Notes under the pieces: generated by a model | What the model saw: only the letters and a program-made list of their open reading frames with translations | What the model was told of the DNA's origin: nothing | Databases searched by the model: none | Translations under genes and position numbers: made by a program | Assembly: GCF_018977255.1 (NCBI RefSeq) | Contig: NW_024704828.1 | Coordinates: 124,001 to 188,000 of the forward strand | Reading direction: 5' to 3' | DNA: 64,000 nucleotides | From: Callorhinchus milii | Taxonomy: Eukaryota | Part shown: piece by piece, positions 1-15,036 of the stretch | Numbering within the stretch: position 1 is the stretch's first letter | How the letters are laid out: each line of letters opens with the position of its first letter

Positions 1-1135
1 ATCGTTGGGCAAGTTTCCTTACTCCACACACACGTCTCTGCTTACCTAGCAGTAAGTTGGAACCCGCTTGTTAGTCGCTTTACCAGGAGGGAAATAATGC
101 CTTAAAAAAAATAATTTGGTCACTCAGTTCCCAACTGTTTGTGGGGACTATGTTAATCCTTAATAATCCTTACATTTCACATCTGGGAGGACATTATGTG
201 GGCAAACATGGCATCTAAGTGCAGAGCAATGTCCCAATTATAAATTGAATATACTCTCCAGAGGCGGCAGAACAAGACAATTCAGGTTTCGGGTTACAAA
301 GGGCAATTAGAGCAGAGCCAGGAAGTATATCTTTATCCACGTGAATATATAGTGAGTGGAACAGGTACCATGGAGAGTAATTGAGGACACTGGATGCATT
401 TAAAGAAGCAGCTCTATGTCGCAATAAGACTACAGTGTTGTAAAGATTTATTCACCTTCAATCTTCGTCCTTCCTGGTGATAGGACGACTGGTACAAGAT
501 TGTTTGATGGGATTGTGTGAAAAAGTGAGCACATGTATGAAAATGTGTGAGGTACCACCTGATATCTGAGACGCTACCCTGTGTGATGGGCTGTCCAGGT
601 GTGATGATCCACGATGATTTATTTCTCCTTCCTTGCAGGATGGATTGAACGTGAGACTTATTACTGAGAAGTTTTACCGTCGCAGCGATGTACAGGACAG
701 AACACTGGTGTGCCATCAGCTCCATGATTGTCGCTTGTTAAATGACACCATTATTTTTAAAGACTTAACAACTGATTTCAGAATATTTTCATCAATGGTT
801 CACTGCAGTTCGATTAATATCAATTAAAAATCCAGCAATGCAATGTCTGACAAGACTCCATTACTCTAAAAACCCATCAGGATGCTTAAGGAGTTTGAGC
901 CAGACAGAGAGTTCAACATATGGATGAAATTTCCCTGCGTCTGGGAATGGATTATTTCCTGGAGCTTGCCAAGAGTTTCCAACACCCAGAATGTTATCCT
1001 GTCCAGTAAATTTCTACAGTTTAATCCTGGTCAAACACATCCATTGACCACCATTGTGATTTCCTGAAAAAACAGCTACAGCAAACTCAATACTTTCAGA
1101 ATTAATTGTATTTAATTCCACCCAAAGCCGACATT

Positions 1136-3958
1136 TTAGTTACTGTAGCACAGAGAGGGATGAATAGGTCCAAACTTCTGATTAAAGTCATCCTGAGCGA
1201 GAAGCAGAGCCTCCTCGTCTATGTAAACTGCCGGCCGTTTGGAGATCACAAAATATTGGGTTTTCCTCAGGCTCCACCCAAAGATGTACATCAGGAACCC
1301 GCAAACTGTGGCTGTGGATCTCCCCACTCCAGCATTGCAGTGAACATACACACTGTGCCCATTCGCCAGCAGCCCGTGCAGTAAGTACACAGCCTGCGGT
1401 AACATCTGCACTCGGCCTGAGGGAAGGCAAGACACACAAACCTCCATCATCTTCAACACTTACACAAACGCAGGTTTAAAAAAGGTAAAGACTCGGACAG
1501 GTTATTTATTTCAGGAACATAACAGAGTTCCGAGGGTTCTGGTGACTTCTGTTTTATTTTTAGAAGATCAGGAGTATTTGGGCTCAGGATCTTGGTGTCT
1601 TCATTGATTTGCGATGGGACTCCAGCAAACCGTTTATCCACAATAAGGAGATCTAAATTGCCACCCTCTCCCTGCTCACAGCACTCCTCCCTCATCCATC
1701 TCAGTGAGAACACATTCTCCCTGTTCAAGGCTTACTTCACCCACCACCACCACCACCACCACTGGCAGGTGGGTCGGTAACCAGGGGACATAGATTCAAG
1801 ATGATTGCCAAAAGAACCAAGGGAAAGACGTGGAGAATTTCTTTACACAGAGAGGTGTTGTGGTCTGGAATGCATTGCCTGAAAGGCTGGTGGAAACAGA
1901 TCAACAACAACTTTCAAAAGGGAATTGGATAGATACTGTTTGCAAGGATATGGGGAAGGAGTGGGACTGATTGGGTAGCTCTTCCAAAGAGCCAACACAA
2001 GCATGATGGGCCGAATGGCCTCCGATGCTATTATAGTCTATGATTCTATGATAAGAGTCAAAGGAGCTGGATCACCTTGTGTGCTCATGTCTGGGGTGGG
2101 AATCCACACATAGGCCAAACCAGCCTCTTTGTAGAGTTCCTGCAGGAATTCAGGTTTCATGGGTTCAGGTTTCTGGTTACAACCCCATGAATTGTGGATA
2201 ATATCCCAATCCGTCTGGAAATTCATCACCGCAGTGACTCCCAGCTCCTGCTTCAGCTTCACCGTCACATGTTCTAGCTGTCGCGGGCAGCTTCCCAGCC
2301 ACAGGCTCGACAGGATCCTGTAGTGAATAGACAATATAATAATAATAATAATCCTGGCATTTGATACCGCGCCTCATCACGTCTTTGAGACGTCTCAAAG
2401 CGCTTCACAGGATACACTGTAAAGTGAATTAACTGTATTTTGTGGACAAAATAATGTCACACTTACCTGTAGTAGTGAATAGACATTGTCACACTTACCT
2501 TCAGCAGTGAATGGACATTGTCACACTTACTTTCAGCAGTGAATGGACATTGTCACACTTACCTGTAGTAGTGAATGGACATTGTCACACTTACCTGGAG
2601 TAGTGAATGGATTGGTTGTCTGCAATGTGAAAGTAGAAGTCAGTGGTGTGTTTCATCTCGTTGGTGAAACCACTCTCCTCTATATAGTGCCCGACGGGGT
2701 GACAGTAAACCCCATCCACCACGTTACTGTCGGTAAATTCACAGCAGCGGTCATGCAAAGGACCATTTCCTAACAATGACAACAAAACTCTTATTTGGGA
2801 CTTTCCCCTCTCCTACAGCCCTCTGTTCCCCTCTCCTACACCCCTCTGTCCCCCCTCCTACACCCCTCTGTCCCCCCTCCTACACCCCTCTGTCCCCCCT
2901 CCTACACCCCTCTGTCCCCCCTCCTACACCCCTCTGTTCCCCTCCTACACCCCTCTGTTCCCCTCCTACACCCCTCTGTTCCCCTCCTACACCCCTCTGT
3001 TCCTTTAGGGCCACACATATCCATTGCTACTGTTACATTCACTGATCGCTGATCGAGTTGGGGCTGTGTCCAAGTCGGTGTTGATCCATCTCTCTCCGTG
3101 GAGCAAACTCTTGGTTCTCTTATTCCTCATTTCTTGGGCCTCGTGACACTCACAACCGGTGCGGTTACTGCTGTCAGTCACTCGCTGATCAGATTACAGA
3201 GCGTGGAGCTAAAATTAACCGGGACTGTGTGCCAACATGTCAGCGGGAAACCCGATGAGCAAAAAACAACTAAGCTTTCCCTTAGTAAATAATGATTTGT
3301 TACTTGCTACCAGTTCACCAACCCCCCACCACCCTCTACCCTCTACCCTCTACCCCTACCCATCCCCTCTACCCACCCGCACCACCCTCTACCACCCCCA
3401 CCACCCTCTGCCCACCCCCTCCACCTCTACCCACCCCCACCACCCTCTGCCCACCCCCTCCACCCTCTACCCACCCCCACCACCCTCTGCCCACCCCCTC
3501 TACCCACCCCCACCACCCTCTACCCCTACCCACCCCCTCTACCCCCTACCCACCCCTCCACCCCCTCTACCCCTACCCACCCCTCCACCCCCTACCCACC
3601 CTCCACCCCCTCTACCCACCCCCTACCCACCCCCGGTGCCATGTACCTTCCCAGATGATCTGCCCATTGATGTTCTTGGCAAATTTGAACCAGAATCTCT
3701 CGCTGACGTTGTGCTGCAGTGAGATGTCGGCGACCCACAGCTGGGCTGACCCTGGGGCTGACCCTGGGGCTGACCCTGGGGCTGGGGCTGACCCTGGGGC
3801 TGGGGCTGACCCTGGGGCTGACCCTGGGGGCTGTGAGCCGGGCTCATGGGCACCGCCTTCCCGGGATCCCAGTGACCGAGCTCCGGGCGGGAGCCCGACA
3901 CACACAGCGTCTCAGCCCCACCGCCCAGAGACACCACCACCGCGAACCTGAACAGCAT
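1136..3958 (-). CDS. EPM2A: Laforin-like glucan phosphatase (CBM20 + dual-specificity phosphatase), 4 coding exons, one apparent 1-nt frameshift in exon 1
   Basis: Exons 3958-3647, 2769-2595, 2317-2076 and 1416-1136, all GT-AG with compatible phases. Peptides [92 protein letters not shown] and the catalytic HCNAGVGRS match laforin. Exon 1 changes frame near 3743-3745. Could be a paralog rather than the strict ortholog. Confidence 0.9.
1780..2052 (+). mobile_element. CR1-type LINE 3' fragment
   Basis: Degenerate CR1 ORF2 C-terminus (FFTQR..VWNALPE..VE) followed by gggccgaatggcct and an (attctatg)-like tail. Confidence 0.75.
2453..2610. repeat. 32-bp tandem repeat (5 copies) containing the laforin exon 2 end and splice donor
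   Basis: Unit cattgtcacacttacctgtagtagtgaatgga; cttac recurs at 2462, 2494, 2526, 2558 and 2590. Confidence 0.95.
2807..3003. repeat. ~22-bp pyrimidine-rich minisatellite in laforin intron 1
   Basis: About 8 copies of cccctcctacacccctctgt(t/c)c. Confidence 0.9.
3320..3632. repeat. C-rich low-complexity array (G-rich on the laforin sense strand)
   Basis: Degenerate accccc/accctctaccc units immediately downstream of the laforin exon 1 donor. Confidence 0.85.
3741..3832 (-). repeat. Coding 12/18-bp tandem repeat in laforin exon 1 encoding (QGQP/QP)n
   Basis: Plus-strand units ctggggctgacc with optional extra ctgggg. Confidence 0.95.
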
Positions 3959-4720
3959 AGCCACAGGGGGACAGCGGGGGGCGGGGCGTGGTGACAGAGG
4001 GGGCGGGCGTGGTGACAGCGGGGGGCGGGGCGTGGTGACAGCGGGGGGCGGGGCGTGGTGACAGCGGGGGCGGGGGGCGGTGACAGCGGGGGCGGGGCGT
4101 GGTGACAGAGGGGGGGGCGTGGTGACAGCGGGGGCGGGGCGTGGTGACAGCGGGGGCGGGGCGTGGTGACAGCGGGGGGCGGGGCGTGGTGACAGCGGGG
4201 GGCGGGGCGTGGTGACAGCGGGGGCGGGGGGCGGTGACAGCGGGGGCGGGGCGTGGTGACAGCGGGGGGCGGGGCGGGGGGACAGCGGGGGGCGGGGGGA
4301 CAGCGGAGGGCGGGGCGTGGTGACAGCGGGGGCGGGGCGTGGTGACAGCGGGGGGGGCGTGGTGCCAGCGGGGGGCGGGGCGTGGTGCCAGCGAGGGGGG
4401 ACAGCGGGGGGCGGGGCGTGGTGACAGCGGGGGCGGGGGCGTGGTGACAGTGGGGAGGCGGGGTCTCCCGTACCAATGACGAGACGAGACTGCCCCTTGG
4501 TCCCGCCTGCTGTGTCATGTTACGTTGTGAGAGCTCGCAGCCGATTGGTGGAGGAGGCCGCCTGCCAGCCAGGCTGTGCCGGGAGTGGCGATTGGTCAAC
4601 CGACGGGGTAGGACCCGCCTACTCACCGCCGGTTGGTGGAGGCCGACGTCTGTCAAAGCGGTGGCGGCAGGTGATTGGTGGATGGTGATGTCACTCGCTG
4701 TCACTCCCTCCCCCGGTGAC
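3959..4720. promoter_or_regulatory. Bidirectional CpG-island promoter / 5' UTR region (laforin-like and GPR108)
   Basis: Divergent ATGs ~760 bp apart; CpG-rich; GC boxes (GGGCGG, GGGCGTGG); CCAAT at ~4473 and ATTGG at ~4544, ~4591 and ~4674. Confidence 0.75.
3965..4455. repeat. GC-rich ~21-24-bp minisatellite between the laforin and GPR108 start codons
   Basis: About 20 copies of ggggcggggcgtggtgacagcgg. Confidence 0.95.

Positions 4721-15036
<10,316 letters not shown>

What the first reader, a model, noticed from the sequence alone, without database searches (positions are those of the whole stretch)
1136..3958. Laforin gene in a 19p13-like block: possible second vertebrate laforin paralog
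Seen: a 4-exon laforin with the CBM20 Trp/Lys residues and HCNAGVGRS, head-to-head with GPR108. Known: human EPM2A is a single gene on 6q24 near UTRN/FBXO30/SHPRH, whereas GPR108, C3, RDH8, DNASE2 and DCAF15 are all on 19p13. Inference: this is either a duplicate glucan phosphatase retained in this lineage and lost in mammals, or a relocated ortholog. Retained introns exclude a retrocopy.
Basis: partly seen in the sequence, partly recalled or inferred. Interest (0 to 1): 0.7.

Follow-up and report, generated by a model that had tools for sequence, protein, structure and literature searches.

The report
Ordinary laforin gene that changed chromosome
This is the elephant shark's only complete copy of laforin, the glycogen phosphatase lost in Lafora disease; it is spliced, groups with shark laforins, and has likely moved with its introns from its usual large chromosome into a small GC-rich one, so it is not a second vertebrate laforin.

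Summary
The 4-exon laforin is real (minus strand, 3958-1136) and already annotated publicly as laforin [Callorhinchus milii]. Spliced contigs from two studies carry the base, so it is most likely an assembly slip; the RefSeq model hides it with a 59-nt pseudo-intron.

The paralog idea fails. Four genome searches find one complete gene. The only other hit is a recent truncated duplicate (exon 1 plus a dead acceptor) on C29. The FBXO30/SHPRH/UTRN region (962 kb of C3) holds no laforin trace. The protein is sister to elasmobranch laforins (100/99), and the ancient-paralog tree is rejected (AU p=0.0008). In 15 of 15 scoreable sharks and rays, laforin shares a chromosome-scale contig with FBXO30; here it does not.

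Best reading: the single EPM2A ortholog moved, introns intact, into a 19p13-like GC-rich block on the holocephalan side. It now lies head-to-head with a GPR108-like gene, is compact (2.8 kb) and evolves somewhat faster. My searches found the move neither in print nor in earlier scan notes, but it is an ordinary gene transposition.

The parts
3647..3958 (-). EPM2A exon 1 (ATG at 3958; most of CBM20); 312 nt as assembled, one base short of frame
3741..3832 (-). Coding 12/18-nt tandem repeat giving a Pro/Gln/Gly linker loop in CBM20; length varies between alleles; holds the 1-base deletion (G-run 3743-3745). Ends approximate
   Evidence: sequence; 6-nt indels and +G; shorter alleles P0121 and P0122
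2770..3646 (-). Intron 1, 877 nt, GT-AG
2595..2769 (-). Exon 2, 175 nt
2318..2594 (-). Intron 2, 277 nt, GT-AG
   Evidence: joint table
2076..2317 (-). Exon 3, 242 nt (DSP domain, D-loop)
1417..2075 (-). Intron 3, 659 nt, GT-AG
   Evidence: joint table
1136..1416 (-). Exon 4 coding part, 281 nt with stop; catalytic HCNAGVGRS at 1342-1316
700..1135 (-). 3' UTR, continuous with exon 4 in RNA-type contigs at least down to 700; candidate AATAAA near 618 (untested)
3959..4720 (.). 762-nt GC-rich interval between the laforin ATG and the likely ATG (4721) of the GPR108-like gene; likely shared bidirectional promoter (not tested)
   Evidence: sequence; GOST domain downstream at 12778-13140

Best explanation
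This is the single complete EPM2A (laforin) gene of this holocephalan, which likely moved as DNA with its three introns from the FBXO30/UTRN macrochromosome into a GC-rich 19p13-like block, and which is predicted to be an ordinary glycogen-binding phosphatase. Shown: gene structure, splicing, single complete copy in the assembly, tree position, absence from the C3 region, 19p13-type neighbours on both sides. Inferred mechanism: copy-and-loss or cut-and-paste transposition after the split from bony fishes, most simply after the split from sharks and rays. The vacated site is probably the gap-free UTRN-DACT2 interval, and the gene likely shares a promoter with the GPR108-like gene. Inferred biochemistry: CBM20 (W30, K72, W83) binds glycogen, and the DSP domain (D219, R225, C250-X5-R256) removes glucan phosphate through a cysteine-phosphate intermediate, as in human laforin.
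For: One complete locus with four queries: own exon 4, shark, hagfish and a 15-sequence profile. The hagfish query still found exons 2-4, so a gnathostome-level paralog should have been seen. No laforin signal in C3:68.27-69.23 Mb: best 4.5 bits against 3.5 for reversed DNA and 26-162 for the true exons. That span holds SASH1, TAB2, FBXO30, SHPRH, STX11-like, UTRN and DACT2. Tree: sister to 14 elasmobranch laforins at 100/99, again 100/99 in a 25-row tree; elasmobranch+bony clade without it rejected, p-AU 0.00084. Laforin and FBXO30 share contig length in 15 of 15 scoreable elasmobranchs but not here (215,859 vs 99,087,298). Locus ids are consecutive in Erpetoichthys, Synaphobranchus and Albula. 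Left flank on C87: Na,K-ATPase alpha, four GPCRs, C-type lectin, TBC, C2H2 and LRRC8 genes. The laforin/GPR108-like adjacency recurs in the diverged C29 duplicate. Key residues are conserved.
Against: The gene sits on a small contig (216 kb) in a duplicated and partly redundant region. The genome search can miss short exons: the GOST family search missed this window's own GOST gene. Unassembled sequence cannot be searched, and two 25-N gaps lie in the C3 span, neither in TAB2-FBXO30 nor in UTRN(3')-DACT2. Shark synteny is indirect (contig lengths and accession order, not gene maps). No other holocephalan could be examined, so the date is loose. Neither DNA-type run covered position 3742, so a rare frameshift allele is not excluded. 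R91, otherwise invariant in the six comparison rows, is Asn here. No activity assay.
Confidence: 0.88

Rival explanations
1. An ancient (whole-genome-duplication) second laforin retained on a microchromosome, with the canonical copy lost or unassembled in this species.
For: 19p13-type neighbourhood on both sides. PMC8302630 (passages) says 2R gave macro/micro chromosome pairs. The end branch is long (0.37).
Against: Sister to elasmobranch laforins at 100/99; AU p=0.00084. No canonical copy. No second locus among the listed records of 19 elasmobranch species (large clusters were listed only in part).
Confidence: 0.03
2. A duplication in the cartilaginous-fish stem with reciprocal loss (sharks kept the old site, this lineage the new), possibly with both copies alive in some chimaera.
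For: Gives the same tree and single-copy state as the best explanation; chimaera-only substitutions are about double the elasmobranch count in most tests.
Against: Needs an extra loss; no second copy seen in any elasmobranch listing.
Confidence: 0.06
3. The location is an assembly artefact, or the gene is a frameshifted pseudogene.
For: Small contig; 85 kb of it is 98.9-99.8% identical to C29, which diverges at a repeat near window 7012; frameshift as assembled.
Against: The adjacency to the GPR108-like 5' end recurs in an independently diverged copy whose two diagnostic bases appear in DNA-type run X2. Spliced, in-frame contigs come from two studies. The C3 site lacks the gene.
Confidence: 0.03

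Closest known systems
Human laforin / EPM2A (PDB 4rkk, 4r30; glucan phosphatase, CBM20 + dual-specificity phosphatase)
   Same: Same two domains; 60% identity; W32, K87, W99, D197, D235, R241, [10 protein letters not shown]321 and C329 equivalents kept. Exon 2 and 3 sizes (175, 242 nt) match the human sizes as I recall them; fragments of other laforins break at the same residues.
   Different: On a GC-rich 19p13-like block rather than beside UTRN/FBXO30; whole gene 2.8 kb; length-variable Pro/Gln/Gly loop; R91 equivalent is Asn.
Elasmobranch laforins (e.g. XP_041043592.1 Carcharodon, XP_048387124.1 Stegostoma)
   Same: 69-72% identity for the five best-scoring full-length records; one clade at 100/99.
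   Different: They lie on the FBXO30-bearing large contig in 15 of 15 scoreable species.
Public annotation of this gene: laforin [Callorhinchus milii] XP_042201675.1, XP_007910394.1, UniRef V9L6T3
   Same: Exon 4 is 100% identical; the locus is already named laforin.
   Different: XP_042201675.1 equals the window sequence with a 59-nt stretch of exon 1 treated as an intron, so its linker is an artefact of the 1-base deletion; V9L6T3 has the spliced reading with a shorter repeat.

Membership tests
Laforin (EPM2A) family | N-terminal CBM20 followed by a DSP domain | tested here: met
   PF00686 40.9 bits (cut-off 23.3) and PF00782 58.1 bits (cut-off 33.5) on P0122
Laforin (EPM2A) family | Glucan-binding residues W32 and K87 (PMC8564118, passages); W99 recalled | tested here: met
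   W30, K72, W83 in alignment
Laforin (EPM2A) family | Catalytic HCxxGxxRS (PMC2714694, passages) and D-loop Asp (recalled) | tested here: met
   H249-C250-N-A-G-V-G-R256-S, D219
Laforin (EPM2A) family | Binds glucan and releases phosphate from it in vitro | not testable with these tools
   Needs a recombinant assay
Canonical gnathostome EPM2A ortholog | Branches at the species-tree position among EPM2A proteins | tested here: met
   Sister to elasmobranch laforins, 100/99
Canonical gnathostome EPM2A ortholog | Only complete laforin in the genome | tested here: met
   (assembly only)
Canonical gnathostome EPM2A ortholog | Linked to FBXO30/SHPRH/UTRN (usual, not required for orthology) | tested here: not met
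   Those genes are on C3; laforin is on C87
2R ohnolog (second vertebrate laforin) | Branches outside the shark+bony EPM2A clade | tested here: not met
   p-AU 0.00084
2R ohnolog (second vertebrate laforin) | Coexists with a canonical copy here or in a relative | tested here: not met
   None in G000; none in the listed records of 19 elasmobranch species
Retrocopy | Introns lost | tested here: not met
   Three spliced introns; no joined form in DNA-type run X1

The most novel reading that the evidence does not exclude
A single-gene, intron-keeping jump from a macrochromosome into a conserved microchromosome in chimaeras. EPM2A landed head-to-head on the GPR108 promoter, took on short introns and high GC3, and roughly doubled its protein rate while its former neighbour FBXO30 stayed slow. 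That would be a natural experiment on how chromosome class reshapes a gene. A second copy surviving in another chimaera is not excluded.
Probability: 0.5. Interest if true: 0.35.

Novelty: already known. Interest (0 to 1): 0.2.

Why it matters
A second vertebrate laforin would have been news for glycogen and Lafora-disease biology; this is not one. What remains is modest. First, it is a case of gene traffic into a microchromosome-type block, a class described as having low inter-chromosomal rearrangement (PMC8302630, passages). Second, it is a caution that synteny alone can mimic an ohnolog in this genome. Third, it is an annotation fix: the RefSeq laforin model for this species has an artefactual linker.

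Tried and rejected
Second copy at FBXO30 or UTRN: tblastn with 77 laforins, blastn and HMM scans gave only noise; the best tblastn hit, E 0.008 near C3:69.007 Mb, had no HMM support.

C29:4.21 Mb hit as a paralog: rejected. Exon 1 differs from the window copy by 3 substitutions outside the repeat, the intron-1 acceptor reads TG, and homology stops about 65 nt into exon 2. It lies in a ~50-kb block duplicated at 91-99% identity. RNA-type contigs over exon 1 matched the window copy, not this one, but contigs drop rare variants.

A true mini-intron in exon 1: rejected, since contigs are continuous there and carry the extra G.

SELENOL as a marker of the vacated site (the Hypanus laforin record is named selenoprotein L): the family search gave one weak unrelated-looking hit and the motif scan nothing useful; inconclusive.

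GPR108 vs GPR107: the family search missed the gene and the Atlas look-up was uninformative.

No RNA holder was listed as RNA on record.

Sex-chromosome link: the putative chimaera X fragment maps mostly to human chromosome 1 (PMC12952989, section 3.4); nothing there ties it to this block. Its one text supplement has no hit for epm2a, laforin, gpr108, dnase2 or dcaf15.

Literature searches for the move found nothing: laforin/EPM2A/synteny/Callorhinchus, EPM2A+shark. Earlier scan notes held nothing on this locus.

No structure prediction was run; a solved 60%-identical homolog exists.

Full report
Gene. The minus strand carries a four-exon laforin: 3958-3647, 2769-2595, 2317-2076 and 1416-1136, with GT-AG introns of 877, 277 and 659 nt. 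Exon 4 matches human laforin structures at E 1e-39 and is 100% identical to a public protein named laforin [Callorhinchus milii]. That gives the organism and shows the gene is already annotated. Introns 2 and 3 are skipped exactly in 3 of 3 RNA-type contig sets and in 0 of 1 DNA-type set; the exon 1-2 joint shows in 2 of 2 RNA-type sets. The tool only guesses that these runs are RNA.

No in-frame four-exon model exists as assembled; translation stops at codon 134. Contigs of X5 and X6 (two studies) carry one more G after 3742, in a G-run of a coding tandem repeat. The public protein P0122 reads through in that frame, and everything downstream of the break matches it exactly. With the base present the window allele gives 336 residues; P0122 (316) and P0121 (313) have shorter repeats. 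The RefSeq protein P0001 equals the window sequence with 59 nt of exon 1 removed as an intron, so its linker is an artefact. The two DNA-type runs did not cover 3742, so a real rare null allele is not excluded, but an assembly slip is likelier.

Protein. CBM_20 and DSPc pass their cut-offs. Against human laforin, W32, K87, W99, D107, R108, D197, D235, R241, the HCNAGVGRS loop, Y294, P301, F321 and C329 are all matched; R91 is Asn. W32 and K87 are the direct glucan-binding residues (PMC8564118, passages) and HCxxGxxRS is the DSP signature (PMC2714694, passages). Ordinary glucan-phosphatase activity is therefore predicted, not shown.

Copy number. Exon 4 finds itself and one weak DSP (2 matches, 28 candidates scored). 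Shark laforin gives 12 matches: 5 on this gene, 2 on C29 and 5 weak DSP-motif hits. Hagfish laforin gives 4: three exons here and C29 exon 1. A 15-sequence profile gives 13: 5 here, 1 on C29 and 7 motif-only hits of at most 33 bits. CBM_20 gives this gene, C29 and one site on C1 that I did not examine. The C29 hit is a recent segmental duplicate: about 50 kb at 91-99% identity covering laforin exon 1, intron 1, the promoter and much of the block to the right. Its intron-1 acceptor is TG and it ends about 65 nt into exon 2. Its two diagnostic bases occur in DNA-type run X2, so it is real, but it cannot encode a phosphatase. Limit: the GOST family search missed this window's own GOST gene, so the search can miss short exons; the hagfish query is the control that a diverged laforin would be seen.

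The usual site is empty. On C3 (99 Mb) the order is GRM1-type (67.68 Mb), SASH1, TAB2, FBXO30, SHPRH, LATS1-like kinase, cyclophilin, katanin-type AAA (twice), calpain, TAF5L, ABCB10-like, CCSAP, syntaxin, UTRN, DACT2. Gene names here are my reading of Pfam domains plus recalled human order; FBXO30 is confirmed. A profile scan of all 962 kb from 68.27 to 69.23 Mb peaks at 4.5 bits, against 3.5 for reversed DNA and 26-162 for the true exons. Two 25-N gaps lie in the span, none in TAB2-FBXO30 or between the UTRN EF-hand exons and DACT2. In reptiles and birds EPM2A is reported beside FBXO30 and GRM1 (PMC4524481, passage).

Direction of the move. For 15 of 22 elasmobranch species seen in either listing, both laforin and FBXO30 came with a contig length, and the lengths are equal in 15 of 15 (89-376 Mb). 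The other 7 lacked one of the two entries or a length, and the two largest clusters were listed only in part (15 of 23, 15 of 36). In an older Chiloscyllium punctatum annotation the two are 13 gene models apart on one 2.1-Mb scaffold. That fits the 10 or more genes I find between FBXO30 and the end of UTRN here, so sharks probably keep EPM2A just past UTRN (inference). Three bony fishes have consecutive ids. Sharks and bony vertebrates thus share the old linkage, and this lineage is the derived one.

Tree. In a 48-row ML tree (LG+C20+F+G4, rooted on 5 non-vertebrate or unnamed rows) the protein is sister to all 14 elasmobranch rows at 100/99. A 25-row tree repeats this, and forcing elasmobranchs and bony vertebrates together without it costs 22 log-likelihood units, p-AU 0.00084. 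Deeper branches are poorly resolved (bony vertebrates are not recovered as one clade, and hagfish floats), but the node that matters is starred. Rows were chosen by me from the hit lists: one per species, full-length where available.

New home. Left of laforin on C87 lie a Na,K-ATPase alpha gene (tail to tail), four single-exon GPCRs, and C-type lectin, TBC, C2H2 and LRRC8 genes. Right of it lie a GOST 7TM gene starting 762 nt from the laforin ATG, a short-chain dehydrogenase, C3, DNase II and DCAF15. The right 85 kb of C87 continues as the tip region of C29, a 4.3-Mb contig with GC 0.40-0.56 in the part I read. Short chimaera chromosomes have high GC, high gene density and short introns (PMC12952989, Results part 1). 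Laforin GC3 is 0.60 (exons 2-4), against 0.36-0.46 for four C3 ORFs and 0.46-0.74 for four C87 ORFs; I had no shark coding DNA to show that it rose. In relative-rate tests the chimaera protein has more private changes than elasmobranchs in 8 of 8 trios (p<0.05 in 6, or 5 without the linker), while FBXO30 has fewer in 8 of 8 (p<0.05 in 2). These trios are not independent and the skate trios are not significant.

Verdict. The second-paralog reading is not supported; the relocated-ortholog reading is. The gene is already known. The relocation was not found in my literature searches (open-access library only; bioRxiv supplements were not available) or in earlier scan notes, but it is an ordinary kind of event. 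Papers seen: PMC2714694, PMC8564118, PMC4524481 and PMC8302630 as passages; PMC12952989 as abstract, Results part 1, section 3.4 and a search of one supplement; all others as search listings only.

Noticed in passing
G000:C29:4209155-4259733 (L016-L025) vs window 2710-56001: Recent segmental duplicate (91-99% identical) of the block, inverted relative to the near-identical copy on C29. It includes truncated laforin, a GPR108-like gene lacking window 4800-8031, the dehydrogenase and a second C3-region copy.
   Followed up: partly
window 7012-64000 and C87 to its end vs C29:4182867-4097912: About 85 kb is 98.9-99.8% identical; C29 diverges at a repeat near window 7012 into 26 kb with an internal 4.5-kb tandem duplication. 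Haplotig, misjoin or structural allele; unresolved.
   Followed up: partly
window 3741-3832: Length-polymorphic coding tandem repeat (Pro/Gln/Gly) in the CBM20 loop; alleles give 313-336 residues.
   Followed up: partly
P0001 (XP_042201675.1): The RefSeq model uses a 59-nt pseudo-intron to bypass the 1-base deletion, giving a wrong linker.
   Followed up: yes
L108:6314-8845 and L110:5550-8083 (C3:68.596-68.618 Mb): Inverted duplicate of katanin-type AAA/Vps4_C exons with identical Pfam scores, on either side of a 25-N gap; possibly an assembly artefact.
   Followed up: no
G000:C39:377110-378618 vs C3:68987333-68988841: Identical-scoring second copy of UTRN EF-hand exons on a small contig; likely redundant assembly.
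   Followed up: no
C3:68.47-68.99 Mb: FBXO30-SHPRH lies between TAB2 and a LATS1-like gene, far from UTRN's 3' end, unlike the recalled human order; a calpain-TAF5L-ABCB10-CCSAP block sits before syntaxin-UTRN.
   Followed up: partly
P0186 (XP_043830471.1, Dromiciops): A second 'laforin-like' protein on an 85-Mb contig, sister to the main Dromiciops laforin (100/97), with the catalytic loop reading HCNAGIGTS (Arg lost); a marsupial duplicate, likely inactive.
   Followed up: partly
P0139, P0142 (Hypanus sabinus): Laforin proteins are named 'selenoprotein L isoform' in NCBI, suggesting merged gene models of neighbours.
   Followed up: partly
L044-L046 (C87:82.4-101.9 kb) and L026:1238-2326: Cluster of four single-exon rhodopsin-family GPCRs, three of them recent copies (93-98% DNA identity); another such GPCR lies near the tip of C29.
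   Followed up: no
L096 (G000:C1:37835909-37836157): Another CBM_20 gene, probably STBD1 (recalled; not examined).
   Followed up: no
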